The notes under the pieces are model-generated. The model ran no database searches. It was given only the letters and a program-made list of their open reading frames with translations, and had not been told where the DNA came from. A stretch of 64,000 bases of DNA from an uncultured bacterium (GTDB taxonomy: Bacteria; Cyanobacteriota; Cyanobacteriia; Cyanobacteriales; JAABRE01), in NCBI GenBank assembly GCA_964413275.1, contig CAYPSO010000004.1:2520-66519 (forward strand), in the 5' to 3' direction. Positions 48,074-60,333 of the stretch are shown here, one piece after another. Position 1 is the stretch's first letter. Every line of letters starts with the position of its first letter. The position numbers and the translations under genes are program-made.

Positions 48074-48349
48074 ATTTTTGTTTAAGTTTATTTTAATTGC
48101 GTTACAGAAGTCAGAATTACAGTTGTTGCTGTATTACCTTATTATTTTATATTTGTCAAGTTTTTTTTGCTATTAAATTAACTTCTTAATATAATGTAAC
48201 GTATTTCTCATAATTCTGGCAAGAACGATTTGTTATAAGTAGGAGTAACATGAATTTAACTAAAAAAAGCAAACTTTAAGAAATTATGGAAGCCCAAGAA
48301 AAAACCATTCTTACCGACCAAAAATTCGCCGTTGGTACTTTATAGTCTT

Positions 48350-49891
48350 TTAAGATAATTTGATCAGTAATCCCAAGATTTTTTTTGATGTGGGAGTTAA
48401 CAAAGTGCGACGATAAGCATCGGCTGCTTTTTTGATTGCGTCTGCTTGGGTTGGGTAAGAATGGATCACCCCAGATAAACCATTTAAACCGATTTTATTG
48501 ACCATAGCGGCGGTTATTTCTGAAATCATCTCTCCTGCATGGGATGCGACAATGGTTGCTCCTAAAATTTTATCTGAGCCTTTTTGGTGATGGATTTTCA
48601 CGAAACCTTCGGTTTCACCATCGGCGATTGCCCTATCAACGGTACTCATTAAAATTTTAATGGTTTCGTATTGAATATCTTGTTCTTGTAGTTGATGTTC
48701 GTATAGCCCGACATGGGCAATTTCTGGATCGGTATATGTTACCCAAGGTATAACTAAATCACTAAATTTAGATTTACCAAAACCGAAGGGAGAGAAAAGT
48801 GTATTTTTAATCACAATTCTAGCGGCTGAGTCAGCAGTGTGAGTAAATTTATAGGGTAAACAAATATCCCCTGCTGCAAAGATTTTAGGATTAGTGGTTT
48901 GGAGATAATCATTGATTTTTACACCGTAGCGATCGTATTCTACTCCTACAGTTTCTAAATTTAAACCTTCTATATTGGGAGTTCTTCCCGCACCGATTAA
49001 AATTTCTTCAACAATAATTGACTCTTGAATACCATTAGAAATATAGTCAATTTTTTTACCTCGATCTGTCTTTTCGACTTTCAATAATTGAGCGTTTAAA
49101 ACTAAGTTAATCTTTTCCTTTATAAAGGTATTTTGTAAAATTTCTGCTGCGTCAACATCTTCCTTATTTAAAATGCGATCGTGTTTATGAAATAGGGTAA
49201 CATTTGCTCCTAAACGATGGAAAGCTTGAGCTAATTCACAACCAATAGGCCCACCGCCAATAACCGCTAAACTTTTGGGTAATTCTGTTAAAGAGAAAAT
49301 AGTTTCATTGGTATGAAAACCAGCTTCTTCAATGCCTTCAATTTTTGGTTTAACTGCTCTTGCTCCTGTAGCAATAACGGCTTTTTTATAGGACAATTTT
49401 TGACCATTAACTTCGACAGAATTAGTACCCAAAAAACTAGCTTCTCCTAAAAAAACATCTATCCCTAAATTACGAAATCTTTCCGCAGAATCATGGTGAC
49501 TAATTCCTGCACGAATTTTACGCATTCTTGCCATTACTAGGGAAAAATTTATTTCAGTTTCTGTTACATTAATCCCTAATTCTTTAGCTTTTAAAATTTC
49601 TCCTATTACTTTAGCTGAGCGAATAATAGCTTTAGAAGGAACACAACCAAAATTTAAACAATCTCCTCCCATTAAATATTTTTCAACTAAAGCAATTTTT
49701 AGTCCTAAATTCAAACCTGCTGCACCGGCTGCCACAACTAAACCGGCTGTGCCAGCACCAATTACGACTAAATCATATTTATCTTTGGGGTTAGGATTAA
49801 CCCAGTCAGAAGGATGAACATAGGAGATTAATTTTTGATTATGTTCATCTAATGGCAAAAGATTTATGTTAGAAAAAGATTGGTGTGTCAT
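48350..49891 (-). CDS. Class I pyridine nucleotide-disulfide oxidoreductase (MerA-like/dihydrolipoamide-dehydrogenase-like)
   Basis: FAD motif VVIGAGTAG, the redox-active disulfide GGDCLNFGCVPSK, an NAD(P) motif, and a C-terminal dimerisation domain. There is no N-terminal HMA domain and no C-terminal Cys pair, so this is not a bona fide MerA. Confidence 0.75.
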   Translation of the reverse strand: MTHQSFSNINLLPLDEHNQKLISYVHPSDWVNPNPKDKYDLVVIGAGTAGLVVAAGAAGLNLGLKIALVEKYLMGGDCLNFGCVPSKAIIRSAKVIGEILKAKELGINVTETEINFSLVMARMRKIRAGISHHDSAERFRNLGIDVFLGEASFLGTNSVEVNGQKLSYKKAVIATGARAVKPKIEGIEEAGFHTNETIFSLTELPKSLAVIGGGPIGCELAQAFHRLGANVTLFHKHDRILNKEDVDAAEILQNTFIKEKINLVLNAQLLKVEKTDRGKKIDYISNGIQESIIVEEILIGAGRTPNIEGLNLETVGVEYDRYGVKINDYLQTTNPKIFAAGDICLPYKFTHTADSAARIVIKNTLFSPFGFGKSKFSDLVIPWVTYTDPEIAHVGLYEHQLQEQDIQYETIKILMSTVDRAIADGETEGFVKIHHQKGSDKILGATIVASHAGEMISEITAAMVNKIGLNGLSGVIHSYPTQADAIKKAADAYRRTLLTPTSKKILGLLIKLS

Positions 49892-49908
49892 AATATTTAA
49901 AATGAATT

Positions 49909-50694
49909 TTATTCAATAGGTTCTAAAACTGCATTATTTAAGGCTTTTCTTGCTATTTTGGTGACATATAAAGTAACCGCTACTGTCGCAATAAAACCGA
50001 TAATTCTAATAGTCCATTGAGCAACAGGATTAGCGGTGGCTGTTTCCGTACCAATGGTGGCTAAATTACCAGCTAACGAACCAATATAAACATACATGAT
50101 TGTCCCCGGAATCATCCCCACTGAACCAATCACATAATCTTTGAGGGAAACTCCTGTCACACCATAGGCATAATTAAGTAAATTAAAGGGGAAAACAGGA
50201 GATAAGCGGGTTAAGAGAACTATTTTTAATCCTTCTTTACCAACTGCTTGATCTATCGCCCTAAATTTATCATTACCGGCAATTTGTTGCGCTACCCAAC
50301 CTCTTGCTATATATCTACCTACTAAAAAAGCACCTGTTGCTCCAAGAGTTGCGCCAATAAAGACAAAAATTGAACCAAATACTATTCCAAACACTACCCC
50401 TGCTCCTAAAGTGAGAATTGAACCGGGGAGAAAGGCTACAGTAGCGATAATATAAAGAAGGATAAAGGCTATAGCTCCCACCGCACCTAAATTATCAATC
50501 CATACTAAAGCATTGAGCAACCATTCTTGAGGATTAAACCCACTCCCAGCAGTTTCTTGGGCTAAAACTGGATTGGCCACTAAAACCATACTCATGGTAA
50601 AAGTCGAGAAAGCTAAAATAGTAAAACCCTGCCAAGATGGTAATTTTTTGGGGGTAAAATGATTTTTAATTTTCCGAAGATTAATTGAAAACAT
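49909..50694 (-). CDS. TVP38/TMEM64 (DedA-superfamily) membrane protein
   Basis: Polytopic protein with LTRLSPVFPFNLLNYAYG, characteristic of the family. It is a tandem paralog of the next gene. Confidence 0.75.
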   Translation of the reverse strand: MFSINLRKIKNHFTPKKLPSWQGFTILAFSTFTMSMVLVANPVLAQETAGSGFNPQEWLLNALVWIDNLGAVGAIAFILLYIIATVAFLPGSILTLGAGVVFGIVFGSIFVFIGATLGATGAFLVGRYIARGWVAQQIAGNDKFRAIDQAVGKEGLKIVLLTRLSPVFPFNLLNYAYGVTGVSLKDYVIGSVGMIPGTIMYVYIGSLAGNLATIGTETATANPVAQWTIRIIGFIATVAVTLYVTKIARKALNNAVLEPIE

Positions 50695-50699
50695 AAAAT

Positions 50700-51431
50700 T
50701 TAGTCTCCCTCAAGGGTATTTCTGAGCGTTTTTTTGGCAAAATTTGTGAAATAAATAGTTAAGCTAATGGTGGCAATTAATCCAATAATTCTCATTAACC
50801 AACGTAAAAGTTCGGTTTCTCTGGTAATTGGGGGTGACATATCAATGCTTACTAAATCAGTGGCTAAAGAGCCAAAATAAACGTACATGACTGTACCCGG
50901 AATCATCCCTAATGAACCTAATATATAATCCTTTAGGGAAATTTGACTAATACCGAAGAAATAGTTTAAAAGATTAAAGGGAAATAGAGGGGAAAGACGA
51001 GTTAAAAAGACGATTTTCCAGCCCTTTTGGGCGATAGCTCGATCTAGCTTTTTAAATTGATGGTATTTCAGCAATTGAGAATTAACCCAATCTTGACAAA
51101 AATAACGTCCTAATAAAAAAGCTGCTACTGCTCCTAAACTAGCAGCAATTAAAACAATAATACTTCCCCACCACAATCCGTATAAACAACCTCCTTTCAT
51201 GGTTAAAATTGAACCGGGGATTAAACATAAAGTTGCTATATTGTAAATACAAATAAAGAAAATGCAACCGATTATCCCCAGATTTTTAACTTCTGTTAAA
51301 GAACTTTGCCAGAATTGTTGTACATTAAAATTATGAAAAATCCAGAACCCAAGGGCGAATAAAACACCGCTCAAAATAAATTTGACAGCTTTTTTTTGAT
51401 TAGTGGTGAGATATTTGTTTCTTGGGATCAT
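50700..51431 (-). CDS. TVP38/TMEM64 (DedA-superfamily) membrane protein
   Basis: LTRLSPLFPFNLLNYFFG, with the same architecture as 49909-50694. The intergenic gap is 5 nt. Confidence 0.75.
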   Translation of the reverse strand: MIPRNKYLTTNQKKAVKFILSGVLFALGFWIFHNFNVQQFWQSSLTEVKNLGIIGCIFFICIYNIATLCLIPGSILTMKGGCLYGLWWGSIIVLIAASLGAVAAFLLGRYFCQDWVNSQLLKYHQFKKLDRAIAQKGWKIVFLTRLSPLFPFNLLNYFFGISQISLKDYILGSLGMIPGTVMYVYFGSLATDLVSIDMSPPITRETELLRWLMRIIGLIATISLTIYFTNFAKKTLRNTLEGD

Positions 51432-51457
51432 AAATTTTTAGATTGATTAATTATTAA

Positions 51458-51985
51458 TTATTTAGGAAAATTACCAGCTAAATGAGAGAAAGTTACTTTA
51501 CCCATTTCCCCTGGCATTTCTCCATGAGTTTGGTTATCGGCATGATAAGCAACTACTAACATTTGATAGTTATTAGCGGATACAGTAATAGTTTTTGTCG
51601 CATTACCATTACTATCAGCACGGAAGAAATTATTTTGAACTCCTCCCGCAGGTCCCATGTCCATACCCACAATCTTTTTATTTACCCACCAAAAAGTATA
51701 AAGTCCATTGGGGACTAATCCTTGAGCTTTCACTGTAACTTGATAGTTGTTGGTACGAGGAATAGGAGTTGTCGAAATTTGAGCTTTGGCACTTAACCAT
51801 TTTTCTTTGGTAAAATTGCTAGGAAGACCATCTTGATCTGTTGCCATTAAGCCAGCTATATTTTGTGCGATAAGTTGTTGGCTTTGTTGTCTTACAGGCT
51901 TTAGCTTCAAAGTTTCAGCATTAACATAACTGACAGTTGCGGAAAGTAATAAAATAGTTGTACTACCCAAAAGTAAACGTTTCAT
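51458..51985 (-). CDS. Secreted protein of unknown function
   Basis: Signal peptide MKRLLLGSTTILLLSATVSYVNA with the predicted cleavage site before ET. I prefer the Met at 51985, preceded by AAGGA, over 52018. The mature part is beta-rich and has an HADNQTHG(E)MPGEMG segment. Confidence 0.5.
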   Translation of the reverse strand: MKRLLLGSTTILLLSATVSYVNAETLKLKPVRQQSQQLIAQNIAGLMATDQDGLPSNFTKEKWLSAKAQISTTPIPRTNNYQVTVKAQGLVPNGLYTFWWVNKKIVGMDMGPAGGVQNNFFRADSNGNATKTITVSANNYQMLVVAYHADNQTHGEMPGEMGKVTFSHLAGNFPK

Positions 51986-52066
51986 AGAATAATATCCTTG
52001 CTTAAATTGTAAATTCATAAAAGATACGATGCCGATGGGAAAATGGATTTAAAATTTATCCAAAAA

Positions 52067-52720
52067 TTATCTTTGAGTAAATTTCAAAATATCAAGAATT
52101 ATTTGAGGTTCAAGTCTATTCCTATAATCAGAATCCACAAAGCTATGAATAATTACTCCATCTTGAGCGACAATATAAGTAGCAGGAATTGGTAATTGAT
52201 AAGATTCATCTCCATTAGAAGCGGGGAGATTAATCCCAAAACTTTGATAAATGGGGCGTAATGGTTCTGCTACTGTAAAGGTTAAGCCAAATTCATGGGC
52301 TACTTTATTACCGACATCGCTTAAAACTTCAAAACTTAGCTCATTTTTTTCTACCGTTGATAGAGAATTATCAGGAGTTTGAGGAGAAATTGCCACTAAA
52401 GTTGCACCTGCTTGTTTGATTTCTGCTAAACGTAACTGTAAAGCTCGCAACTCTAAACTACAATAAGGACACCATCCACCCCGATAAAAGGAAATAACTA
52501 CCTTTGATGTTGTTAATAGATCTTGAATATTGACAAATTTTCCTGTGGCATTGGGCAAGGTAAAATTAGGTATTGTATCTCCTTGTTGGAGAGCATTTTC
52601 CACAATCTCGGAATTAATTAAATCAATAGCACTTTTTTCCATTAAATTTTTGACATCTTCAGATAACATTGATTGCATATTGATTGATACATTGGTTAAA
52701 TCTTCTTGTAAACTCATCAA
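52067..52720 (-). CDS. Peroxiredoxin-like thioredoxin-fold protein (AhpC/TSA, PRX_like2-type)
   Basis: FYRGGWCPYCSLELRAL (a CxxC embedded in the AhpC/TSA context). Confidence 0.7.
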   Translation of the reverse strand: MMSLQEDLTNVSINMQSMLSEDVKNLMEKSAIDLINSEIVENALQQGDTIPNFTLPNATGKFVNIQDLLTTSKVVISFYRGGWCPYCSLELRALQLRLAEIKQAGATLVAISPQTPDNSLSTVEKNELSFEVLSDVGNKVAHEFGLTFTVAEPLRPIYQSFGINLPASNGDESYQLPIPATYIVAQDGVIIHSFVDSDYRNRLEPQIILDILKFTQR

Positions 52721-52743
52721 ATTTCTCCTTATGATAAAAAAGG

Positions 52744-53766
52744 CTAAAAAGAGCCAAAAAATCCGGGATAAACAAAGGCAAAAGCAGTGGAGCTAGGAAT
52801 AACTTTACCGTCTAATTCTTCCACAACCACTGTATTTAGCTCTTGCTCCCAACGGGCGCGAATTTGCCGAGAGCCAAAATTGACAATTTTCTCACCAACT
52901 TGTTTGATTTCTTCATGGGAAAATTGTTGACTGATACCAGAAAAGTGATTATGGGGGGTTTTTCCATCTGTTTCCCAGACATAACTAATAATTGCTTTAG
53001 GATGAAGTTTTCTTTCCTCTTGATGGCGTACCGGAAAAACAAGCTCCTCATTAGTGGTATAAGTACCGTAAGGATATTTAAAATAATCCCGCTCGTGACC
53101 AGTTTTTGTGGCTAAAATTTGACTATCAGGGTATTTTTTCAGCCAGTCTCTTAAGGTAGTTTTGACCGTAGCAACTCGCTCCAGAGAAACATTAACCTTT
53201 TTACCAACAACCCCTAATCCCCAAGGTTGAGAATATAAAGTATCATCGCGGCGATCGTACATTACTAAACAACTTTGGTAAAGTTTTCCTGATACTCCAT
53301 AGGTGCTATCACCTCTGTTAAAAGCCACAATCGTGTCACACAAAGGACAATAGGAAATAGTAAGATTAGTGCCTCCTACAGTATCATTAACAATTTCATG
53401 CCAATTCATAATCCCTAGTGGATAGGCTTTTGCTTCTCCATTAACTACTACACCGATAACTAATTCATCTTGATTAAAAGGGGTTGTTTTGCTAGTATCA
53501 AAAACAGGATTATCAATACTAGGAATACCGTCTTTAGGAGGCCCACCATTTAGAAGTTCGCTTAATTCAATCCGAGTATTTTTCGCTGGATCTAGGTTTT
53601 GTTTTCTTAAATCTGCTAACTCTTGAGTTTGATCTTTAAAATGCTGGGTTAGGGAAAAATGACGCAGTTTAAAATCATCAAAACTTTCTGCTTTTAAGAT
53701 TAATGTGCCTAAAGTTAATATGGCTAGTCCTACATTACTTAAGGCTATGATTATGTTTTTTTTCAT
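52744..53766 (-). CDS. DUF3179-family protein, exported or membrane-anchored
   Basis: N-terminal hydrophobic anchor, then KDGIPSIDNPVF, NGEAKAYPL..MNWHEIVND and YCPLCDT, as recalled for DUF3179. Confidence 0.6.
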   Translation of the reverse strand: MKKNIIIALSNVGLAILTLGTLILKAESFDDFKLRHFSLTQHFKDQTQELADLRKQNLDPAKNTRIELSELLNGGPPKDGIPSIDNPVFDTSKTTPFNQDELVIGVVVNGEAKAYPLGIMNWHEIVNDTVGGTNLTISYCPLCDTIVAFNRGDSTYGVSGKLYQSCLVMYDRRDDTLYSQPWGLGVVGKKVNVSLERVATVKTTLRDWLKKYPDSQILATKTGHERDYFKYPYGTYTTNEELVFPVRHQEERKLHPKAIISYVWETDGKTPHNHFSGISQQFSHEEIKQVGEKIVNFGSRQIRARWEQELNTVVVEELDGKVIPSSTAFAFVYPGFFGSF

Positions 53767-53821
53767 GATTAACGACCTTTTTAATTAGGCGATAAAAGTT
53801 GATAATAGTCACAATAAATGC

Positions 53822-54220
53822 TTAATTATCAATAGTCCAAAGAGTATCTAAATCTCTAAGCAAATAAAGAGTAAAGCAAGCCGCTAACATGGGAAAAGCT
53901 GTAAAAAATAGCAGATTTTCAAAGGGTGCTAGGTATTGTTTTAATGAGGAAAAAGTAGAAACAGAATGAAAAAATAACACCAATAGATAAGTCCATTTTT
54001 TTTGAAAACCTGCTACAAATCCCAAGACAATTACTAATTGAATTGCCCCGATCAGATAAATTAAGCCATTATTTAAACCAGATATAAAATAGAAATTCTG
54101 GAAAATTTTGGCGGCATGATCTGGATTAATAAATTTGTCTAAAGTCCACATAATCATGACGATAAATACACTGAGACGAAGCAACAGTAAGGTCAGGGGT
54201 ATGCGCTGGTTTTGTTTCAT
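53822..54220 (-). CDS. Small four-TM membrane protein (DoxX-like)
   Basis: LLLLRLSVFIVMIMWTLDKFINP resembles the DoxX N-terminal helix. Weak assignment. Confidence 0.35.
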   Translation of the reverse strand: MKQNQRIPLTLLLLRLSVFIVMIMWTLDKFINPDHAAKIFQNFYFISGLNNGLIYLIGAIQLVIVLGFVAGFQKKWTYLLVLFFHSVSTFSSLKQYLAPFENLLFFTAFPMLAACFTLYLLRDLDTLWTIDN

Positions 54221-54265
54221 GTTAAGTTGGCTTGTATTCTTCTCTTTAAAGATACGAAGTCAATC

Positions 54266-55159
54266 TCAAAATGGATTTAAAACATTTGTAACTAGATTTT
54301 GATTGGCTATCCCTAATTCAATCAGAACAATCGCACCGACAATTATAAATAAGATACCCATACTACGCTCAAGTAATTTTTGTGACAATTTAGTTGCCAC
54401 AATTGAACCAAATTGCGCTCCAATTAAGACTCCGGGGGCGGTAAAAATAACTAGATTAAGAACGGTTGTTAATTCCTCATTTCCTGCTTGAATAAACTGT
54501 ATTACATGACCCACAGAGGCGGTTAAAGCGGTGATTGCAACAATAAAAACACTGGTTGCTACTGCTACTTGACTGGGAACTTTACACCGTTGAATTAAGA
54601 AAAAGCCATTTAATTCTCCTAAACCTGTGGATAGCATACCTAAAAATAATGCACCAATGCCAATGAGGAGACGACCTTCTGTATGGTTAGCAACGGTATA
54701 ACAAAAGCTTTGTCCATCTCTACTGGTAATACAGGTTTGAGGGTGATTGGTTTGATGGCTTTGGATGTCTCGATCTAATAATTTAATATCTCTAGTTTCG
54801 GGACTTCTCAAAAAACTATCAGCTATGACAAATAAACCAACTCCCAACATTGCTTTTAAGGCTTCGGGAGGAATTAATTTACCCAACCAAGTACCGAATA
54901 AAGCTACAGGAATGCTAACTATTAAGAGCATTTTTCCTAGTTGAAAATCGATTAATCCTTTACGAATATAGGCAAATAAACCACTGGAAAAACCAAAAAC
55001 TTCCGTAATTAAACCCGTACCAATTGCCACCTCTGTGGGTAATTTTAAAGCTAAGATAAACAACGGTGTAAAAAAAGTTGCTCCTTCCACTCCTGAAGCC
55101 ATAGCAATGGTAGCAATAACCATTGAAATAGGAAACATAAACCAATATTCAAAACTCAT
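54266..55159 (-). CDS. TauE/SafE-family anion (sulfite-type) exporter
   Basis: Two homologous 4-TM halves with G-rich helices (GVEGATFFTPL; GLGELNGFFL), separated by a roughly 50-aa cytoplasmic loop. Confidence 0.6.
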   Translation of the reverse strand: MSFEYWFMFPISMVIATIAMASGVEGATFFTPLFILALKLPTEVAIGTGLITEVFGFSSGLFAYIRKGLIDFQLGKMLLIVSIPVALFGTWLGKLIPPEALKAMLGVGLFVIADSFLRSPETRDIKLLDRDIQSHQTNHPQTCITSRDGQSFCYTVANHTEGRLLIGIGALFLGMLSTGLGELNGFFLIQRCKVPSQVAVATSVFIVAITALTASVGHVIQFIQAGNEELTTVLNLVIFTAPGVLIGAQFGSIVATKLSQKLLERSMGILFIIVGAIVLIELGIANQNLVTNVLNPF

Positions 55160-55163
55160 GTAA

Positions 55164-56159
55164 TTAAGTTAAAGCACCTCCACAACTCGAACCTGAACCT
55201 GCCGTACAACCATAACAATGGGGTGCTGTAGCTATGGTTTCAATTACATCTAAACTACCCATTTCTAATAGTTTAGCAATGGTTAAAATTTCTCCATTAG
55301 CAGTTTTTGAAGGCAAATTTTCCATCTGATTAAAATCACAATCATAAACATTACCTAAGTAGTCAATTGATAATTGATTGCGACACATTAAATTATTCAC
55401 AGTATGAGAATTAAAATTAGACTCCAGAAAACTTAAATAACACTCATTTAGTTTCTGTGCTTCTAAGTAGAATTTAGTTCTACCTATGGGTAAATTAGTA
55501 ATGGTTAATAGGCTATTAAAGTAAATTTCAAAATGTCCTCGTAAGAATCTTTTATAATCTTGTTCTAACTTGATTTGATCTGGAGTTAAAGAGAAATTTT
55601 GAGAAGTGGGTAATTTCGGATTATAAACAAGATCGAGGATTAAATTAGGATTGAGTCCATAGCCTAAATTATTTAACCATTGTATAGCCTTAATTGAGCT
55701 ATGATAAACTCCTTTTCCTCGCATTAGTTCCACATTATCTTCTAAATAACAGGGTAAAGAAGCTACAATTTTTACCTCATTTTTAACACAATATTCGGGA
55801 ATATCTGCAAAACCTTCTTCAAAATAAATAGTTAAATTAGACCTGACAATTATCTCTTTTTGGTATTTTTTGGCAGTTTCTACTAAAGGTTTAAAACCAT
55901 AATTTAATTCCGGCGCACCACCTGTTAAATCTACAGTTTTAATTTGAGGGAATTTACCTATTAATTCTCTTAATTGCTCGCAAACTACTTTAGTTAATTC
56001 CTCAGTGCGTTGTGGACTAGCCTCTACATGACAATGCTGACAAGCAAGATTACATTTTTTACCTAAATTAATTTGTAAAACTGTAATCTTATTTTTGCTT
56101 AAAACTTTACCTATTTTATCTTGAAATGGGGTTAATTCTGGCAAGATTTTAGTTTTCAT
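55164..56159 (-). CDS. arsS: Radical SAM / Cys-rich-tail enzyme of the ArsS (arsenosugar biosynthesis) family
   Basis: Cluster motif GKKCNLACQHCHVEA (CxxxCxxC) and the distinctive C-terminal tail APHCYGCTAGSGSSCGGALT. It lies 38 nt downstream of an ArsM-like methyltransferase. Confidence 0.6.
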   Translation of the reverse strand: MKTKILPELTPFQDKIGKVLSKNKITVLQINLGKKCNLACQHCHVEASPQRTEELTKVVCEQLRELIGKFPQIKTVDLTGGAPELNYGFKPLVETAKKYQKEIIVRSNLTIYFEEGFADIPEYCVKNEVKIVASLPCYLEDNVELMRGKGVYHSSIKAIQWLNNLGYGLNPNLILDLVYNPKLPTSQNFSLTPDQIKLEQDYKRFLRGHFEIYFNSLLTITNLPIGRTKFYLEAQKLNECYLSFLESNFNSHTVNNLMCRNQLSIDYLGNVYDCDFNQMENLPSKTANGEILTIAKLLEMGSLDVIETIATAPHCYGCTAGSGSSCGGALT

Positions 56160-56197
56160 GTTTGATTCTTTTTATTTATTAAGCCAATGGCACTTAT

Positions 56198-57160
56198 TTA
56201 ACAACAGCCGCCTCCCTGATAATGCCAGGTAGAATTAGTAATTAAAATTTCTGAAAATCTACTTAATTTAGCAGCAGTTTTATCACAAACAAAACTTGGA
56301 ATCCCTTTCCTTAAGATATGTCCAGCTTGGTCGTCAAAAAAATCTAAATTACCATGATAAATTGCCGTTTTTCCGGTAAAAATACAAGCTCCATCTTCGG
56401 GAATAGCTACTTTAAAAGAAACAGTGTCCAAACTTTCTAATAATAATGGTTCATCGAGTTGATAATTATGAATGTCTAACAAGCGATAAGGGCGACGAGT
56501 TCTAATTTCTACTTGTCCAAAACCATTATCAATTAAATGTTTGATATATTGCTCGTAGGTTAAAGCTCCAGATAAACACATAGCCCGTAACCGTTCATCT
56601 TTTTGTAAATGGGGGGGAATTGGACGAGTTGCGATAGGATCGCTCATTAATAAACGTCCGCCCGGTTTTAAGACTCGAAAAACTTCTTTTAAAGCCTTAT
56701 TTAAGTCTTCGGGTTCAAAAATATTAAATAAACAATTTTGGGCTACTAAATCTACAGATTCATCAACAACGGGTAAATTAAAAGCGTCACCATCCCTAAT
56801 ATCTACAAAATTTTCCTCAAACCAGTCATTTCCTATAGCTGCAACTTTGAGGTTTAAACGGGCTGCTTCTCGCATAGATGCTACGGGATCGACGGCTATT
56901 ACTCCACCTTGACGACGGGTAAAATAAGCAAATTGTAAAGCTTCTAAACCTCCTCCCACTCCTACATATAATATTTTAGGGTTATTCACTAATTCGTCGG
57001 GGTGAATAGTTGTACCGCAACCATAGTTCATATCCTGCATATTCGGAGGGATTTTGAGGCCGGGTAATTGTAAAGGACTACTCTGGACACAACATAAACC
57101 AATTTCTGGTATCTGAGCAACTTCACTATAAAATTGAGCGGTGGTTTCTAAATAAGTCAT
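56198..57160 (-). CDS. SAM-dependent methyltransferase with ArsM-like cysteine architecture
   Basis: SAM motif ILYVGVGGG and VLKPGGRLLMSD. Cysteines sit at ArsM-like positions (GLCC, NYGCGTT, AQNCLFN, AMCLSGA), and the C-terminus is an unusual GGGCC. Confidence 0.55.
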   Translation of the reverse strand: MTYLETTAQFYSEVAQIPEIGLCCVQSSPLQLPGLKIPPNMQDMNYGCGTTIHPDELVNNPKILYVGVGGGLEALQFAYFTRRQGGVIAVDPVASMREAARLNLKVAAIGNDWFEENFVDIRDGDAFNLPVVDESVDLVAQNCLFNIFEPEDLNKALKEVFRVLKPGGRLLMSDPIATRPIPPHLQKDERLRAMCLSGALTYEQYIKHLIDNGFGQVEIRTRRPYRLLDIHNYQLDEPLLLESLDTVSFKVAIPEDGACIFTGKTAIYHGNLDFFDDQAGHILRKGIPSFVCDKTAAKLSRFSEILITNSTWHYQGGGCC

Positions 57161-57323
57161 GTTAATCTGAACTAAATATTTTTCTTGTTTGTCAATTCTT
57201 TTATTAATACGAAACTGAAGGGTAAAAAGGATTTAATTAGTATTTTTTTGAGAAAATCAAATCCATTTTCAATTTAGGTTCGTATCCTTTTTATCTATGA
57301 TAGATTCTGAGGAAAAAAATTTA

Positions 57324-57566
57324 ATGAAAGTTCAACATCTAGCTAAACTGGTAATTGTATCTATCTTTGCTTTGGGGCTGACGGTAGCTTGTACTAATCC
57401 TTGTGGGGCAAAGACAAAAGATTCTGGTACGGGTACAAATACTAATCAAGTTGATCCTTGTGCTGGAAAAGATAACCCTTGTGCTGGAAAAGATAACCCT
57501 TGTGCTGGAAAAGATGACCCTTGTGCTGGAAAAGATGACCCTTGTGCTAGTAAAAATAACAATTAG
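57324..57566 (+). CDS. Small exported (possibly lipidated) protein made of Cys-containing heptad repeats
   Basis: Signal peptide MKVQHLAKLVIVSIFALGLTVAC (weak lipobox). The mature part is CTNPCGAK...VDPCAGK DNPCAGK DNPCAGK DDPCAGK DDPCASK NNN. GAGGA lies 10 nt upstream of the ATG at 57324, which I prefer over 57297. Confidence 0.65.
   Translation: MKVQHLAKLVIVSIFALGLTVACTNPCGAKTKDSGTGTNTNQVDPCAGKDNPCAGKDNPCAGKDDPCAGKDDPCASKNNN
57450..57554 (+). repeat. Five tandem 21-bp repeats (coding)
   Basis: Units gat-aac/gac-cct-tgt-gct-gga-aaa. Units 2 and 3 are identical, unit 4 differs from them by one base, and unit 5 differs from unit 4 only at gga->agt. Confidence 0.95.
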
Positions 57567-57630
57567 CCCAACAGTTAAATGTAGATTAAATCAAATTTTT
57601 GTTGCTATGATGCCAAGCTCTAGGTTATAA

Positions 57631-58188
57631 ATGATGCTTTCCAATCAGACAGATATAGAGGTATTTCAAGCTTTGCGTTCGGGTAATTTGGAAGCTTTAG
57701 GTGTCCTTTACCAACGCTATGGGGAGGTTGTTTACCGTGTCGCCTTAAAAATGTTAGCTAATCAGCAAGAAGCTGAAGATTTAACCCAAGAAGTGTTTCT
57801 TTATCTTCATCATGGTGGCAAATATGATGCCACACGGGGTTCGATGTTGGTTTTTCTTCTTACTTTAACTCGTTCTAAAGCTATAGATCGTCATCGTCAG
57901 ATTAAGGCTCAATGGCAACGGGTTCAACGTTGGTTTCATGGTTTTCCCACCAATGAAGGAGGTAGTTTAATGGATAAAATTGCTCTTAAAGAAATGTCTG
58001 ATTTAGTTAGGGGAGCAATTGCTCAATTACCAGAGTCTCATCAACAAGTTTTATCTATGGCTTATTTTGATGGTTTAAGTCAATCAGAAATTGCCTCTCA
58101 CTTAAATATGCCCCTTGGTACGGTAAAAACCTATAAAAGTAAAGGTTTATTGAAACTTAGAGAATTATTACAAGATTTAATTAAATAA
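57631..58188 (+). CDS. ECF (group IV) RNA polymerase sigma factor
   Basis: Region 2 (YRVALKMLANQQEAEDLTQEVFL) and the region 4 helix-turn-helix (LSQSEIASHLNMPLGTVKTYKSKGL). Followed 6 nt later by an anti-sigma gene. Confidence 0.9.
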   Translation: MMLSNQTDIEVFQALRSGNLEALGVLYQRYGEVVYRVALKMLANQQEAEDLTQEVFLYLHHGGKYDATRGSMLVFLLTLTRSKAIDRHRQIKAQWQRVQRWFHGFPTNEGGSLMDKIALKEMSDLVRGAIAQLPESHQQVLSMAYFDGLSQSEIASHLNMPLGTVKTYKSKGLLKLRELLQDLIK

Positions 58189-58194
58189 ATAATT

Positions 58195-58926
58195 ATGTCA
58201 GAAGAAATTAAAGAACTTTTAGCTAGTTATGTTTTAGGAGACTTGACTTCGGAAGAGGTAGCCAAAGTTAAAAAACTTTTGGCGACTAACCCTGAATTAA
58301 AAGAAGAAGTAGAAAGTTTAAAACAAATCTTGGCTCTTTTCCCCCTGAGCTTACCAGAAGTTGATTTACCTGAAGATTTGGGCGATCGCATTTTGCAAGC
58401 AGCTTCTGAGCATAGGAAAAATCTCTTATGGCTCAAAATTAAGAAAAAAAAACGCCCATTCACAATTTTAGTAGGAACTCTGGCTATGGGAGCGATCACC
58501 ATTCTTGGACTTTTCAACTATCGCCTTCAACAAAAACTTGCGACTACTCAAGAGAAACTTTCTGATTATGAGACAACTATTGCCATTTTACGTCAACCTA
58601 GTAATCGTTTGTTATCTTTACAAGGAACAGAATTAAGTCCTCGTGCTTCTGGCAGCTTGATGGTAAATCCTAATTCAGCCACCATAATATTGACCTTAGA
58701 AAATTTAACTACCCTATCTCAAGACAAGATTTATCGAATTTGGGGGATTCAAAACGAGCAAAAAATTTATTGTGGAGAATTTAACACAGATCCACAAGGT
58801 AAGGTTTTACTTCAACTTCCTTTAGATGCTGATATGTTGGATTCAGTAGGGGTAATTATTACGGTCGAACCCTTACAGAAATTTTCTGTTCCTAAAGGGG
58901 AAACAGTTATGATTGGAACTATTTAA
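58195..58926 (+). CDS. Anti-sigma factor with a single TM helix and an RskA-type extracytoplasmic C-terminal domain
   Basis: N-terminal anti-sigma helix pattern LLASYVLGDLTSEE...V..LL, TM helix FTILVGTLAMGAITILGLF, and the C-terminal YRIWGIQNEQKIYCGEFNTDPQGK...VIITVEP, typical of RskA domains. Confidence 0.75.
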   Translation: MSEEIKELLASYVLGDLTSEEVAKVKKLLATNPELKEEVESLKQILALFPLSLPEVDLPEDLGDRILQAASEHRKNLLWLKIKKKKRPFTILVGTLAMGAITILGLFNYRLQQKLATTQEKLSDYETTIAILRQPSNRLLSLQGTELSPRASGSLMVNPNSATIILTLENLTTLSQDKIYRIWGIQNEQKIYCGEFNTDPQGKVLLQLPLDADMLDSVGVIITVEPLQKFSVPKGETVMIGTI

Positions 58927-59127
58927 CTTTATGAATAATTATTAGAGGATAGGGAAAAGATACGGGCAAAATAGAACAGGATGTGAAGAAATGTAACCAT
59001 TATCTACAGATGATTATTCAACAGGAAAAAACCCATAATATTTGTAACTAGCAAATTACGTTAATAGAGTGCGTTACATTTCATTAACGCACCCTACGAC
59101 TCAAACTAATTATCAATTGTCAGTTGA

Positions 59128-60333
<1,206 letters not shown>

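What the first reader, a model, noticed from the sequence alone, without database searches (positions are those of the whole stretch)
48350..57160. Ten-gene minus-strand operon linking ArsM-like/ArsS-like enzymes to thiol-redox, DedA/TVP38 and TauE membrane proteins
Seen: ten genes on one strand with intergenic gaps of 4-55 nt. In transcription order they are:
1. ArsM-like methyltransferase (Cys at GLCC, YGCGTT, NCLFN, MCLSGA; C-terminal GGGCC)
2. ArsS-like radical SAM enzyme (CNLACQHC; tail HCYGCTAGSGSSCGGA)
3. TauE/SafE permease
4. DoxX-like protein
5. DUF3179 (CPLC)
6. peroxiredoxin-like protein (WCPYC)
7. secreted unknown protein
8. TVP38/TMEM64 protein
9. second TVP38/TMEM64 protein
10. 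MerA-like flavoprotein disulfide reductase (CLNFGC) without MerA metal-binding extensions

Established:
- ArsM and ArsS catalyse the first steps of arsenosugar formation in Synechocystis: methylation, then 5'-deoxyadenosyl transfer to dimethylarsenite. Later steps are not assigned.
- Members of the ArsS family can be selenoproteins.
- TVP38/TMEM64 proteins occur fused to FAD-dependent disulfide oxidoreductases in other bacteria.
- DedA-superfamily and TauE proteins have been linked to selenite and sulfite handling.

Inference: the operon may be a complete metalloid/chalcogen (As, Se or Te) transformation and export system, in which the eight unassigned genes provide reduction, trafficking and export. 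Alternatively it may make an unknown organo-arsenic or organo-selenium product.
Basis: partly seen in the sequence, partly recalled or inferred. Interest (0 to 1): 0.7.

Follow-up and report, generated by a model that had tools for sequence, protein, structure and literature searches.

The report
Arsenosugar genes wired to thiol-redox regulon
A cyanobacterium from a stromatolite has its two known arsenosugar-making genes (arsM, arsS) joined to eight membrane and thiol-redox genes, apparently under one alternative sigma factor; the same partners recur next to arsS in other bacteria, so they are concrete candidates for the unknown later steps of organic-arsenic metabolism.

Summary
In detail: ten minus-strand ORFs at 48350-57160, with gaps of 4-55 nt and every quoted motif present. 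Gene 1 passes NCBI's cut-off for arsenosugar ArsM (569 bits; cut-off 400). Gene 2 passes it for ArsS (403; cut-off 300).

The exact ten-gene order was found only in this contig, but every other gene turns up elsewhere beside arsS or its partners:
- A VTT/DedA gene follows arsS in 13 of 35 dereplicated cyanobacterial lineages, often with the same FAD oxidoreductase.
- Nodularia spumigena has ArsM-ArsS-g7-VTT-Prx-FADOR.
- Unassigned metagenome contigs with a different composition have DUF3179-VTT-ArsS-TIGR04283-TIGR04282.
- TauE, DUF3179 and the CxxC "peroxiredoxin" form a CcdA/thioredoxin operon in Cyanobacterium aponinum.

New here: an ECF-type promoter motif (AATCC-N15-16-TCGTA) occurs five times in the window (0.26 expected). 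Four copies sit before arsM, DoxX, g7 and the divergent Cys-repeat/ECF-sigma/RskA operon. So this is probably three sub-operons plus a regulator operon forming one regulon.

Best reading: an arsenic-specific ArsM/ArsS core coupled to an NAD(P)H-driven thiol relay and DedA-type membrane proteins. It is not "complete": the window lacks the arsenosugar glycosyltransferases, ArsR, ArsC and Acr3. The biochemistry of the eight accessory genes is inferred. Verdict: new variant of a known kind.

The parts
56198..57160 (-). arsM: arsenosugar-type arsenite S-adenosylmethionine methyltransferase (320 aa)
   Evidence: NF038099 AsSugarArsM at 568.6 bits against cut-off 400, full length 2-320. Methyltransf_11/25 domains. 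72-82% identical orthologues lie directly upstream of arsS in 22 of 35 dereplicated lineages.
55164..56159 (-). arsS: radical SAM enzyme that adenosylates DMAs(III) (331 aa)
   Evidence: TIGR04167 at 403.2 bits against cut-off 300. Radical_SAM plus DUF3641 domains. CNLACQHC cluster motif and Cys-rich tail. Reaction taken from PMC13598754.
54266..55159 (-). TauE/SafE-family permease of a Cys-rich subfamily (297 aa)
   Evidence: Pfam TauE at 115 bits. C143, C153, C192 and H218 are conserved in 113-121 of 121 homologues from several phyla. It is 82% identical to the last gene of the C. aponinum thiol operon. In L171 it occupies the position that ArsM-ArsS hold in other loci, next to ArsR, a Pst-like transporter and the ECF sigma pair.
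53822..54220 (-). DoxX/MauE-like small membrane protein (132 aa)
   Evidence: Pfam DoxX at 23.9 bits (cut-off 23.6) and MauE at 18.7. Homologues: 76% in L015 beside ArsR-Pst-ArsM-ArsS, 73% in L082 beside VTT and DUF3179, 54% in L160.
52744..53766 (-). DUF3179 protein with an N-terminal signal or anchor and an invariant CPLC motif (340 aa)
   Evidence: Pfam DUF3179 at 266 bits. C140 is conserved in 75 of 75 and C143 in 73 of 75 homologues. The family has UxxC/T selenoprotein members (PMC9312934). It lies adjacent to VTT-ArsS-GT in L132, L151 and L158 and to ArsS-GT in L140 and L157. It is 75% identical to the CMD::DUF3179 protein of C. aponinum.
52067..52720 (-). Thioredoxin-fold CxxC protein (AhpC-TSA/Redoxin domain, WCPYC; 217 aa)
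   Evidence: Pfam AhpC-TSA at 97.7 bits. No NCBIfam peroxiredoxin model reaches its cut-off; SelL-related redox family at 27 bits. 69% identical to the C. aponinum operon member. Weak homologue (23%, E 1e-6) of c66, which sits between VTT and FADOR in Nodularia and Anabaena.
51458..52018 (-). g7: secreted Cys-free beta-sandwich protein; the homologues that carry an organism name are all cyanobacterial (probable start 51985)
   Evidence: No Pfam or NCBIfam family. 67 homologues. Invariant H159, D161, T164, P169 and G170; near-invariant H165, H179, M121 and M172. AF2 model has pLDDT 80.7, with the core above 90. Best solved-structure matches are Cu,Zn-SOD-like folds, but weakly (E about 1e-3, TM 0.4-0.5). 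Contexts: ArsM-ArsS-g7-VTT-Prx-FADOR in Nodularia; g7-VTT-VTT-FADOR in Halotia; g7x2-GT2-rhodanese-TIGR04282 in L165.
50700..51431 (-). VTT/DedA (TVP38/TMEM64) membrane protein 1 (243 aa)
   Evidence: Pfam VTT_dom at 107 bits. Paired with a second VTT gene as in L004, L014, L015 and Halotia.
49909..50694 (-). VTT/DedA (TVP38/TMEM64) membrane protein 2 (261 aa, no Cys)
   Evidence: Pfam VTT_dom at 97 bits. A member of this VTT family follows arsS, or lies within 10 kb of it, in 13 of 35 dereplicated lineages. Fused to FADOR in L160.
48350..49891 (-). Class-I flavoprotein disulfide reductase (CLNFGC redox disulfide; 513 aa); not a MerA
   Evidence: NF004991 at 826 bits against cut-off 620. MerA TIGR02053 at 386 against cut-off 454. 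No metal-binding N-terminal domain and no C-terminal Cys pair. 68-74% identical orthologues sit next to VTT in L008, L011, L015, L028, L058, L075, L162, L164 and L170.
57208..57233 (-). ECF-type promoter-like motif upstream of arsM (AATCCTTTTTACCCTTCAGTTTCGTA)
   Evidence: 5 matches in the window against 0.26 expected. The same element precedes arsM in L004, L008, L011, L015, L017, L020 and L162.
54253..54277 (-). Second copy of the motif, overlapping the end of TauE, 32 nt before the DoxX start codon
52025..52049 (-). Third copy of the motif, between gene 6 and g7
   Evidence: An equivalent copy lies upstream of g7 in Nodularia (L162 9776-9799) and upstream of VTT in L008.
57260..57284 (+). 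Fourth copy of the motif, driving the divergent Cys-repeat/sigma/anti-sigma operon (autoregulation)
   Evidence: The same motif lies upstream of the orthologous sigma gene in Nodularia (L162 15483-15459).
57297..57566 (+). Small lipoprotein-like ORF with five (D/N)PCAGKD repeats (probable start 57324)
   Evidence: It matches the N-terminal Cys-repeat part of c25 (46-56% identity), a protein that carries a thioredoxin domain in Nostocales, C. aponinum and Trichormus and precedes CcdA there.
57631..58188 (+). ECF sigma factor (185 aa, no Cys)
   Evidence: Pfam Sigma70_r2, Sigma70_r4 and Sigma70_ECF. 68% identical orthologue next to the Nodularia cluster. 42-45% relatives next to arsS in L008, L011, L014, L015, L017, L020 and L171.
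58195..58926 (+). RskA-type transmembrane anti-sigma factor (243 aa)
   Evidence: Pfam RskA_C at 65 bits. 51% identical orthologue in Nodularia.

Best explanation
The locus is an ECF-sigma-controlled arsenic regulon. The arsenosugar-committing enzymes are hard-wired to an NAD(P)H-driven thiol:disulfide relay and to DedA-type membrane proteins.

Shown:
- ArsM and ArsS are family members at curated thresholds.
- Every accessory gene recurs with arsS or its partners in other genomes.
- One promoter-like motif precedes arsM, DoxX, g7 and the sigma operon.

Established from the literature:
- ArsM methylates As(III).
- ArsS adds 5'-deoxyadenosyl to trivalent DMAs(III), giving DDMAA.

Inferred, proposed mechanism:
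1. The RskA anti-sigma factor releases the ECF sigma factor in response to an envelope or thiol signal.
2. The sigma factor then fires four promoters: arsM-arsS-TauE, DoxX-DUF3179-CxxC protein, g7-VTT-VTT-FADOR, and its own operon.
3. FADOR takes electrons from NAD(P)H and passes them to the cytoplasmic CxxC protein (gene 6). This keeps ArsM's catalytic cysteines and the methylarsenic intermediates in the reduced, trivalent state that ArsS needs inside an oxygen-evolving cell.
4. Membrane components (Cys-rich TauE, DoxX) and periplasmic proteins (DUF3179 CPLC, the Cys-repeat lipoprotein, His/Met-rich g7) extend thiol chemistry to the extracytoplasmic side, to bind or reduce arsenicals there.
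5. The two VTT/DedA proteins move an arsenical intermediate, a product, or an arsenosugar lipid or carrier across the membrane.
For: Family membership of ArsM and ArsS.

Arsenic context of arsS elsewhere (ArsR, LMWP ArsC, ArsH-like, MIP, Acr3, PstS, PiT).

ArsS-VTT(-FADOR) linkage survives at least five different gene arrangements:
- L058: ArsM-ArsS-GT-VTT-FADOR
- L004: ArsM-ArsS-GT-VTT-VTT-FADOR
- L075: divergent arrangement
- L028: VTT-FADOR-ArsS
- L011, L008, L015: with the sigma pair in between
- L043: ArsC-ArsS-VTT
VTT is near arsS in 13 of 35 lineages dereplicated at 90% identity. Chance would give roughly 2%, assuming 3 DedA genes per 3.6 Mb genome (PMC3836016).

Other supporting contexts:
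- Nodularia has ArsM-ArsS-g7-VTT-Prx-FADOR followed by anti-sigma/ECF sigma.
- DUF3179-VTT-ArsS-TIGR04283-TIGR04282 occurs in contigs of different composition, with all three enzymes above curated cut-offs.
- L160 has a VTT::FADOR fusion together with the glycosyltransferases, an ArsM-like gene, DUF3179 and DoxX.
- The thiol-relay nature of genes 3, 5 and 6 is shown by the C. aponinum operon CysRepTrx x2-CcdA-TrxR-Trx-DUF3179-Prx-TauE.
- The CPLC motif and the TauE Cys triad are invariant or nearly so.
- TauE sits in the ArsR-Pst-like/ECF sigma frame in L171.

Shared promoter motif: 5 hits in the window against 0.26 expected, with none of 100 shuffles reaching 5; four of the five are correctly oriented 12-47 nt upstream of the ORF start codons as called (32-47 nt from the homology-supported starts). 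Across 2.18 Mb of held loci there are 27 hits against 0-4 in shuffles, about 20 of them independent. The hits include sites in front of arsM, g7, VTT, the CysRepTrx gene, an arsR-Pst cluster and the sigma gene.

ArsS needs trivalent DMAs(III): PMC13598754. arsM and arsS are co-transcribed in Synechocystis: bioRxiv 10.1101/2022.09.23.509062. That ArsM turnover requires a disulfide reductant is my own knowledge of the ArsM/AS3MT mechanism and was not checked here.
Against: - No experiment and no expression data exist for this locus.
- The accessory module occurs without arsM/arsS within 8-10 kb in C. aponinum, Trichormus, Halotia and Stanieria. It is therefore not arsenic-exclusive.
- 22 of 35 arsS lineages show no VTT in the fetched flanks, although many of those contigs are short.
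- The window lacks CcdA, the usual transmembrane electron conduit. No evidence shows that TauE or DoxX can replace it.
- The VTT proteins have no redox residues and their substrate is unknown.
- The literature on the related Slr0305 proposes thylakoid and lipid roles and never mentions arsenic.
- The window's sigma factor lacks the redox-sensing Cys pair described for SigK-type factors.
- The promoter assignment is by motif only.
Confidence: 0.45

Rival explanations
1. Co-regulated but biochemically separate. Genes 3-10 would be a general envelope and thiol-stress defence: a thiol:disulfide relay with DedA membrane-homeostasis proteins under a SigK/RskA-like ECF pair. arsM-arsS would merely have been recruited into the same regulon because trivalent arsenicals are thiol poisons. 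Under this reading the accessory proteins repair or protect thiols and never handle arsenic as a substrate.
For: The same accessory genes form operons without arsM/arsS:
- C. aponinum: CysRepTrx-CcdA-TrxR-Trx-DUF3179-Prx-TauE.
- Trichormus: CysRepTrx-CcdA-TrxR-Trx-VTT.
- Halotia: g7-VTT-VTT-FADOR.
- Stanieria: VTT-FADOR.
RskA-type systems are linked to redox sensing in the literature (PMC7826278, PMC7509140). The TauE subfamily is conserved across phyla in non-arsenic contexts.
Against: A general stress module would not be expected to sit inside compact arsenosugar clusters across distant lineages. Examples are DUF3179-VTT directly upstream of ArsS-GT-GT in L132, L151 and L158; a glycosyltransferase between ArsS and VTT in L004 and L058; and g7 next to TIGR04282 in L165. 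The tight ArsS-VTT adjacency in about 40 Microcoleus-type loci that lack the other thiol genes points to a VTT role specific to the ArsS product.
Confidence: 0.3
2. A later-steps biosynthesis and trafficking set. The accessory genes would be true pathway components downstream of DDMAA. VTT/DedA proteins would act as flippases or scramblases for an arsenosugar lipid or a polyprenyl-phosphate-linked arsenosugar intermediate. The periplasmic proteins (DUF3179, g7) would process or bind the exported product. FADOR would supply reducing power.
For: - VTT sits between or beside ArsS and the GT2/DUF2064 glycosyltransferases (L004, L058, L132, L151, L158).
- The GT2 partners resemble polyprenyl-phosphate and dolichyl-phosphate sugar transferases (AglJ and PpgS hits).
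- VTT proteins give a weak family-level hit to the undecaprenyl-phosphate transporter UptA.
- g7 lies directly beside an AglJ-like GT2 and TIGR04282 in L165.
Against: The window itself has no glycosyltransferase. The UptA hit is far below its cut-off (20-24 bits against 250). The model does not explain the fusion of VTT to a disulfide reductase. The model also gives no role to CcdA, Trx and the Cys-repeat proteins.
Confidence: 0.15
3. A non-arsenic metalloid or metal system (Se, Te or Hg). FADOR would act as a MerA-like metal or chalcogen reductase fed by VTT and TauE transporters, and the ArsM/ArsS-like enzymes would act on selenium or tellurium.
For: - ArsS, DUF3179 and Prx-like families all have selenoprotein members (NCBIfam names; PMC9312934).
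- The best-studied cyanobacterial enzyme of this general type, Slr1849, is reported as a mercury reductase (PMC6741143).
- MerP-like and MerA-like genes lie on the same contig as one DUF3179-VTT-ArsS cluster (L151).
Against: - Genes 1 and 2 match the arsenosugar-specific models at full length and above their cut-offs.
- Neighbours of arsS elsewhere are ars and phosphate genes, not sel, ter or mer genes.
- Gene 10 fails the MerA cut-off and lacks both MerA metal-binding extensions.
- There are no in-frame TGA codons or Sec machinery in the region, and every redox site is Cys.
Confidence: 0.07

Closest known systems
Synechocystis sp. PCC 6803 arsM-arsS arsenosugar operon (SsArsM slr0303; SsArsS)
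   Same: The same two enzyme families in the same order, arsM then arsS, and co-transcribed in Synechocystis. ArsS adenosylates DMAs(III) to DDMAA. By gene numbering, the Tvp38/DedA gene slr0305 probably lies just downstream, which would match the ArsS-VTT adjacency seen here. That adjacency in Synechocystis is inferred and was not verified.
   Different: Here the pair is followed by eight further genes and preceded by an ECF sigma/RskA pair. No role for DedA, a flavoprotein reductase, DUF3179, DoxX or TauE in arsenosugar synthesis appears in any paper I could search.
NCBI/TIGRFAMs 'rSAM/selenodomain-associated' arsenosugar set (TIGR04167 ArsS with TIGR04282 and TIGR04283 glycosyltransferases)
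   Same: ArsS is the anchor. Related loci L004, L047, L058, L132, L140, L151, L157 and L158 carry these glycosyltransferases next to ArsS.
   Different: The window has neither glycosyltransferase in 64 kb. In their place, between arsS and the VTT genes, it has TauE-DoxX-DUF3179-CxxC protein-g7.
Cyanobacterial ars resistance islands (ArsR, Acr3/ArsB, ArsH, ArsC, with PstS and aquaporin)
   Same: arsS sits inside such islands in Microcoleus and many other genomes. All are arsenic-related.
   Different: None of these genes is in the window. Control appears to be by an ECF sigma factor rather than by ArsR.
CcdA/DsbD-thioredoxin transmembrane reducing pathways (CcdA-ResA/TlpA type)
   Same: Genes 3, 5 and 6 and the Cys-repeat ORF are orthologues (50-82% identity) of members of a C. 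aponinum operon built around CcdA, a TrxR-like reductase and thioredoxins. The logic is the same: a cytoplasmic NAD(P)H reductase feeding extracytoplasmic CxxC proteins.
   Different: The window has no CcdA or thioredoxin. A 513-aa class-I flavoprotein replaces the TrxR-like enzyme. Whether TauE or DoxX carries electrons is unknown.
MerA mercuric reductase, and Synechocystis Slr1849 'MerA-like'
   Same: The same superfamily and the same CxxxxC redox disulfide. MerA is the second-best NCBIfam hit.
   Different: Gene 10 scores below the MerA cut-off, has no HMA/NmerA domain, no C-terminal Cys pair, and no MerR, MerT or MerP nearby. Orthology to Slr1849 was not tested.
SigK-RskA (ECF18/19) sigma/anti-sigma pairs
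   Same: An ECF sigma factor followed by an RskA_C anti-sigma factor, with an autoregulatory promoter-like motif.
   Different: The sigma factor here has no Cys, so the disulfide switch described for M. tuberculosis SigK cannot apply. ECF group membership was not determined.

Membership tests
Arsenosugar-type ArsM (NF038099) | Full-length match above NCBI's curated cut-off | tested here: met
   568.6 bits against 400, residues 2-320 on model positions 1-321.
Arsenosugar-type ArsM (NF038099) | SAM-dependent methyltransferase fold with conserved As(III)-binding cysteines | tested here: inconclusive
   Methyltransf_11/25/31 domains are present and several Cys are present, but they were not mapped onto the catalytic Cys of a characterised ArsM.
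Arsenosugar-type ArsM (NF038099) | Methylates As(III) to DMAs(III) | not testable with these tools
   Needs an enzyme assay.
ArsS (TIGR04167) | Full-length match above the curated cut-off, with the DUF3641 C-terminal domain | tested here: met
   403.2 bits against 300. DUF3641 at 174 bits.
ArsS (TIGR04167) | CX3CX2C radical SAM cluster motif | tested here: met
   CNLACQHC in the translation.
ArsS (TIGR04167) | Encoded next to arsM | tested here: met
   38-nt gap on the same strand. The same pairing occurs in 22 of 35 lineages.
NCBI arsenosugar cluster (ArsS with TIGR04282 and TIGR04283) | Both glycosyltransferases encoded nearby | tested here: not met
   tblastn with the fused c40 representative finds nothing in the 64-kb window at E<=1e-3. 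The genes could lie elsewhere in the genome.
ars resistance operon | ArsR repressor, arsenate reductase and an arsenite efflux pump | tested here: not met
   No ArsR, ArsC, ArsH, MIP, Acr3, PstS or PiT homologue in the window.
MerA mercuric reductase | Score above the TIGR02053 cut-off | tested here: not met
   386 bits against 454. NF004991 is passed instead, at 826 against 620.
MerA mercuric reductase | C-terminal Cys pair and an N-terminal HMA domain | tested here: not met
   The C-terminus reads ...KKILGLLIKLS with no Cys pair, and there is no HMA hit.
DedA/VTT (TVP38/TMEM64) | VTT domain above the Pfam gathering score | tested here: met
   107.1 and 97.4 bits against 33.9.
TauE/SafE permease | Pfam TauE domain above the gathering score | tested here: met
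   115.2 bits against 32.6. Sulfite or sulfoacetate export activity cannot be tested here.
DoxX | Pfam DoxX above the gathering score | tested here: inconclusive
   23.9 bits against 23.6, which is borderline. MauE scores 18.7, below its cut-off of 27.
Peroxiredoxin (BCP/PrxQ type) | Match to a curated peroxiredoxin model above its cut-off, with a peroxidatic-Cys motif | tested here: not met
   The best model, NF006960, scores 66 bits against 140. The site is WCPYC, a thioredoxin-type CxxC. Only the AhpC-TSA/Redoxin fold is met.
CcdA/DsbD transmembrane reducing pathway | A DsbD_TM/CcdA membrane protein with two TM cysteines | tested here: not met
   No CcdA homologue in the window. It is present in related loci L004, L008, L011, L014, L015, L017, L020, L166 and L169.
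ECF sigma / RskA anti-sigma pair | Sigma70_r2 and r4 domains, followed by an RskA_C protein | tested here: met
ECF sigma / RskA anti-sigma pair | Redox-sensing Cys pair in the sigma factor (SigK type) | tested here: not met
   The 185-aa sigma sequence has no Cys. The feature is described in PMC7509140 and PMC7826278.
Cu,Zn superoxide dismutase (for g7) | Sod_Cu sequence family and metal-ligand pattern | tested here: not met
   No Pfam or NCBIfam hit. There is only a weak fold-level resemblance (Foldseek E about 1e-3, TM 0.38-0.5).

The most novel reading that the evidence does not exclude
The accessory genes would be the missing machinery of organoarsenical metabolism:
- The FADOR and CxxC-protein relay (with DUF3179 and the Cys-repeat protein outside the cell) would be the long-sought reductase system that converts pentavalent methylarsenicals, MAs(V) and DMAs(V), to the trivalent forms used by ArsM and ArsS.
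- The ArsS-linked VTT/DedA proteins would transport or scramble an arsenical intermediate or an arsenosugar lipid.
- The whole set would be switched on by a dedicated arsenic-responsive ECF sigma/RskA pair through the AATCC-N15-16-TCGTA promoter.
Probability: 0.2. Interest if true: 0.85.

Novelty: new variant of a known kind. Interest (0 to 1): 0.62.

Why it matters
Arsenosugars and arsenolipids are the main organic arsenic species in marine food webs. Only the first two biosynthetic enzymes (ArsM, ArsS) are known. The steps after DDMAA, the source of reducing power in oxygenic cells, and the transport and regulation of the pathway are all open questions.

This locus and its relatives name a short, recurring list of candidates: the VTT/DedA proteins, the NF004991 flavoprotein, a CxxC thioredoxin-fold protein, DUF3179, the g7 beta-sandwich protein, a Cys-rich TauE and DoxX. 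They also supply a predicted regulator and promoter. All of these can be tested by knock-outs and arsenic speciation in culturable or transformable strains, such as Nodularia spumigena and Synechocystis slr0305.

The result also gives a first functional context to two families of unknown function (DUF3179 and g7), and to the widespread VTT::disulfide-reductase fusions.

Tried and rejected
- **Ten-gene order elsewhere:** not found in any of the 80 arsS loci or the 80 DUF3179 loci. Only sub-modules recur.
- **Terminator and sigma-70 promoter scan:** uninformative. 42 promoter-like sites against 35.5 expected; 5 terminator-like sites against 6.4 expected, none of them in a gap between genes.
- **Rfam scan of 47500-59500:** nothing at E<=0.1, so no riboswitch or known regulatory RNA.
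- **DUF3179 against PDB sequences:** no relative.
- **DUF3179 structure:** The single-sequence model is unusable (pLDDT 36.5), so no fold search was run on it.
- **g7 fold:** only a weak SOD-like beta-sandwich resemblance. Rejected as evidence of SOD function.
- **CMD domain fused to DUF3179 in C. aponinum:** tested for a match to an arsenosugar-associated peroxidase-like family recalled from memory. It hit only generic AhpD models.
- **Verifying arsM-arsS-slr0305 adjacency in Synechocystis:** failed. The Xue et al. 2019 paper is not held. Slr0305 was not in the top 120 VTT hits. The Synechocystis CS-94 protein had no contig on record.
- **Fifth motif hit (33735-33760):** rejected as chance, because it lies inside guaA on the opposite strand and lacks the T-tract.
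- **Mobile-element origin:** considered and not supported. Composition is uniform and the flanks are core genes, ftsH and petH.

Full report
**1. The observation**

One search shows ten ORFs on the minus strand from 57160 down to 48350, separated by 38, 4, 45, 55, 23, 48, 26, 5 and 17 nt. An independent gene call on the source record, a 76.8-kb contig from a stromatolite metagenome (ERZ909567), gives the same ten genes. Base composition is even across the block and its flanks. The flanking genes are core genes, ftsH and a CpcD-domain ferredoxin-NADP reductase. No terminator-like site lies in any of the gaps between genes.

**2. Family assignments**

- Gene 1 matches NF038099, "arsenosugar biosynthesis arsenite methyltransferase ArsM", over its full length at 568.6 bits (cut-off 400).
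- Gene 2 matches TIGR04167, "arsenosugar biosynthesis radical SAM (seleno)protein ArsS", at 403.2 bits (cut-off 300), with Radical_SAM and DUF3641 domains.
- Gene 10 passes NF004991, "FAD-containing oxidoreductase" (826 against 620). It fails MerA (386 against 454) and has neither MerA extension.
- Genes 8 and 9 are VTT/DedA proteins. Gene 3 is TauE. Gene 5 is DUF3179.
- Gene 4 is only borderline DoxX (23.9 against 23.6).
- Gene 6 has the AhpC-TSA/Redoxin fold, but its WCPYC site is thioredoxin-like and it reaches no curated peroxiredoxin model.
- Gene 7 matches no family.

**3. Conservation around arsS**

A scan of one genome per species returned 80 cyanobacterial arsS loci with flanks of up to 10 kb where the contigs allowed. 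Mapping the window proteins onto them and clustering all neighbouring ORFs gave four results.

(a) arsS usually sits in an arsenic context. Its neighbours include ArsR, LMWP-type ArsC, an ArsH-like FMN reductase, an aquaporin, Acr3, PstS or a Pst-like ABC transporter, and PiT. The 64-kb window has none of these.

(b) A VTT gene accompanies arsS, and often the same 515-aa flavoprotein does too, in at least five different arrangements:
- ArsM-ArsS-GT-VTT-FADOR (L058)
- ArsM-ArsS-GT-VTT-VTT-FADOR (L004)
- FADOR-VTT divergent from ArsM-ArsS (L075)
- VTT-FADOR-ArsS (L028)
- ArsM-ArsS, then the convergent anti-sigma/ECF sigma pair, then CysRepTrx-CcdA-(Trx)-VTT-(VTT)-(Prx-like)-FADOR (L008, L011, L015)
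- ArsC-ArsS-VTT in about 40 Microcoleus-type loci (L043)

After dereplication at 90% ArsS identity there are 35 lineages. ArsM is present in 22, VTT in 13, FADOR in 6, and the glycosyltransferase and the ECF sigma factor in 3 each. With about three DedA genes per 3.6-Mb genome (PMC3836016), chance would place one within a 20-kb span in roughly 2% of cases. This is a rough estimate.

(c) "GT" is a fusion of TIGR04282 and TIGR04283, which NCBI names arsenosugar biosynthesis glycosyltransferases. The window has no copy.

(d) Genes 3-7 were absent from all 80 loci, apart from a 76%-identical DoxX in L015.

**4. Where genes 3-7 occur elsewhere**

*DUF3179.* A metagenome scan and mapping showed that close cyanobacterial homologues are mostly isolated. 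Distant homologues (about 35% identity), on contigs of different composition (GC about 0.5), sit directly in arsenosugar-type clusters. L132, L151 and L158 have DUF3179-VTT-ArsS-TIGR04283-TIGR04282. L140 and L157 have DUF3179-ArsS followed by the same two glycosyltransferases (gene order; GT identity by tblastn). In L132, ArsS scores 472 bits, TIGR04283 scores 284 and TIGR04282 scores 206, all above their cut-offs. An ECF sigma gene with a small anti-sigma gene lies nearby in L132, L151, L140 and L157. I read those two genes by eye from the sequence and did not test them.

L160 combines TIGR04282-like and GT2 genes, an ArsM-like methyltransferase, a different radical SAM enzyme, a 719-aa VTT::FADOR fusion (best hit NF004991, 530 bits), DUF547, a Pst-like transporter, DUF3179 and a 54%-identical DoxX.

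*Gene 7.* It belongs to a family of hypothetical proteins; those homologues that carry an organism name are all cyanobacterial. In two complete Nodularia spumigena genomes the order is ArsM-ArsS-g7-VTT-Prx-like-FADOR, followed by anti-sigma/ECF sigma (identities of 55-75%). Halotia has g7-VTT-VTT-FADOR. In L165 a doubled g7 precedes an AglJ-like GT2, a rhodanese, TIGR04282 (163 against 134), a B12-radical SAM enzyme, an ABC transporter and DoxX.

*TauE.* It belongs to an unusually conserved subfamily, 60-82% identical across cyanobacteria, Acidiferrobacterales, anammox bacteria, KSB1 and Bacteroidetes. C143, C153, C192 and H218 are conserved in 113-121 of 121 sequences.
- In Cyanobacterium aponinum it ends the operon CysRepTrx x2-CcdA-TrxR-like-Trx-CMD::DUF3179 (75% to gene 5)-Prx (69% to gene 6)-...-TauE (82%).
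- In Nostocales LEGE 11386 it follows ArsR and a Pst-like transporter and abuts the anti-sigma/ECF sigma pair. That is the exact frame which holds ArsM-ArsS in L008, L015 and L017. Remnants of Prx-like, FADOR and DUF3179 genes lie nearby.
- In a Bacteroidetes contig it precedes a related flavoprotein, with DoxX downstream.
- In two other genomes it stands alone.

*The thiol relay without arsenic genes.* A Trichormus-type contig has CysRepTrx x2-CcdA-TrxR-like-Trx-VTT. Stanieria has VTT-FADOR.

All ten genes are therefore tied into one co-localisation network. The window is a mosaic of three recurrent modules: (i) arsM-arsS; (ii) TauE/DoxX/DUF3179/CxxC protein; (iii) g7-VTT-VTT-FADOR.

**5. Regulation**

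Divergent from arsM lie three genes: a small lipoprotein-like ORF with five (D/N)PCAGKD repeats, an ECF sigma factor, and an RskA-type anti-sigma factor. Aligning the regions upstream of arsM by eye revealed a conserved element, AAATCCTTTTTAGCTTCAG(T/C)TTCGTATTA, shared by the window and the Nostocales loci. A related AATCC-N16-TCGTC element lies upstream of the sigma genes.

The pattern AATCC-N15-16-TCGTM occurs five times in the window against 0.26 expected, and none of 100 shuffles reached five. Four of the five lie in this locus, each correctly oriented, 12-47 nt upstream of the ORF start codon as called (32-47 nt from the homology-supported starts):
- before arsM (57233-57208)
- before the Cys-repeat/sigma/anti-sigma operon (57260-57284)
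- before DoxX (54277-54253)
- before g7 (52049-52025)

The fifth hit is inside guaA on the opposite strand and lacks the T-tract.

A stricter pattern finds 27 sites in the 2.18 Mb of loci I hold, against 0-4 in shuffles. About 20 are independent once the window/L001 duplicate and the two near-identical Nodularia strains are discounted. They include sites in front of arsM, g7, VTT, the CysRepTrx-CcdA operon, an ArsR-Pst cluster and the sigma gene.

This has the shape of an autoregulated ECF regulon. It predicts three sub-operons in the "ten-gene operon": arsM-arsS-TauE, DoxX-DUF3179-CxxC protein, and g7-VTT-VTT-FADOR. It is a motif-based prediction. RskA partners belong to the ECF18/19 groups, some of which sense redox state through a Cys pair. 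This sigma factor has no Cys, so any signal would have to pass through the anti-sigma factor.

**6. Protein-level clues**

- DUF3179 has an N-terminal signal or anchor and an invariant CPLC motif. The family includes UxxC/T selenoproteins, which argues that the motif is redox-active.
- Gene 7 models confidently (core pLDDT above 90) as a beta-sandwich. It resembles the Cu,Zn-SOD fold only weakly. It has invariant or near-invariant His, Asp and Met residues. A periplasmic ligand-binding role is plausible but unproven.
- VTT2 contains no Cys, so the VTT proteins are not redox carriers.

**7. Mechanism**

Established:
- ArsM supplies methylated trivalent arsenic.
- ArsS transfers 5'-deoxyadenosyl to DMAs(III) to give DDMAA.
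- arsM and arsS are co-transcribed in Synechocystis.

My best-supported model (confidence 0.45) is that the regulon couples these two enzymes to a dedicated reducing system and to membrane handling. In this model the flavoprotein and the cytoplasmic CxxC protein keep ArsM's cysteines and the methylarsenicals reduced. Cys-rich TauE, DoxX, DUF3179, the Cys-repeat lipoprotein and g7 act at or beyond the membrane. The VTT proteins move an arsenical or an arsenosugar lipid. These steps are all inferred.

The main rival (0.3) is that the accessory genes are a general envelope and thiol-stress module that is merely co-regulated with arsM-arsS. Its support is that the module occurs without arsM/arsS in four genomes. 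Against it stand the compact DUF3179-VTT-ArsS-GT-GT clusters and the tight ArsS-VTT pairs. A variant (0.15) makes the accessory genes true late-pathway and trafficking components. A Se, Te or Hg reading (0.07) is disfavoured by the family scores and the neighbours.

**8. Novelty**

The arsM-arsS pair and its glycosyltransferase partners are known. I found no paper that links DedA/TVP38, DUF3179, this flavoprotein, DoxX, TauE or an ECF sigma factor to arsS or to arsenosugars. Papers on the Synechocystis VTT protein Slr0305 discuss thylakoid and lipid roles only. By gene numbering, slr0305 probably lies next to arsM (slr0303) and arsS. I could not verify this.

I therefore class the locus as a new variant of a known kind. 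Its interest lies in the testable candidate list and the predicted regulon, not in any demonstrated new chemistry.

Noticed in passing
window 57455-57545 (within ORF 57297-57566, + strand): About four and a half tandem 21-bp units (CCTTGTGCTGGAAAAGATRAC) encode the (D/N)PCAGKD repeats, which place a Cys every seven residues. Longer homologues in other genomes add a C-terminal thioredoxin domain and precede CcdA. The window copy is the repeat part alone.
   Followed up: partly
window 54266-55159 (TauE) and homologues P0068-P0187: This TauE subfamily is 60-82% identical across cyanobacteria and several unrelated phyla. It keeps three Cys (143, 153, 192) and His218 almost invariant, which is unusual for a 'sulfite exporter' family and suggests a thiophilic substrate or redox role.
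   Followed up: partly
L171 13240-13661 (Nostocales cyanobacterium LEGE 11386): Short consecutive tblastn remnants of the Prx-like c66, FADOR and DUF3179 genes. This looks like a decayed copy of the module beside the ArsR-Pst-TauE/ECF sigma locus.
   Followed up: no
L165 10001-19847 (GCA_964639245.1): A doubled g7 (323 aa) heads a cluster with an AglJ-like GT2, a rhodanese, TIGR04282, a B12-binding radical SAM enzyme, an ABC transporter, DoxX and another glycosyltransferase. This may be a different organo-metalloid or glycolipid pathway that shares parts with the arsenosugar set.
   Followed up: partly
L160 1393-5644: A variant system: an ArsM-like methyltransferase below the ArsM cut-offs, a non-ArsS radical SAM enzyme (best hit the Rv1681 family, 102 bits) and a 719-aa VTT::FADOR fusion, together with the glycosyltransferases, a Pst-like transporter, DUF3179 and DoxX.
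   Followed up: partly
L151 594-2362: MerP-like and MerA-like genes lie about 7.5 kb from a DUF3179-VTT-ArsS-GT-GT cluster on the same contig.
   Followed up: no
L048 and L033 (record titles): Contigs labelled Candidatus Gracilibacteria and Tatlockia carry cyanobacterial-type arsS (69-72% identity; L033 also carries arsM at 73%). They are probably mis-binned cyanobacterial contigs in those MAGs.
   Followed up: no
window 33735-33760 (+): A fifth match to the loose promoter pattern lies inside guaA (minus strand, 32325-33998). It lacks the T-tract of the other four and is most likely a chance match.
   Followed up: yes
L001 484-1032 (about 8 kb upstream of arsM, beyond the window end): A 182-aa protein with a weak Thioredoxin_2 hit sits on the same contig just outside the window. 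It might be the missing thioredoxin-domain partner of the Cys-repeat ORF.
   Followed up: no
L008, L015, L017, L029, L171, L132, L151, L160: A Pst-like ABC transporter (PBP_like_2 protein, two permeases, an ATPase), often preceded by ArsR, recurs next to arsM-arsS or DUF3179. Its substrate (phosphate or an arsenical) is unknown.
   Followed up: partly
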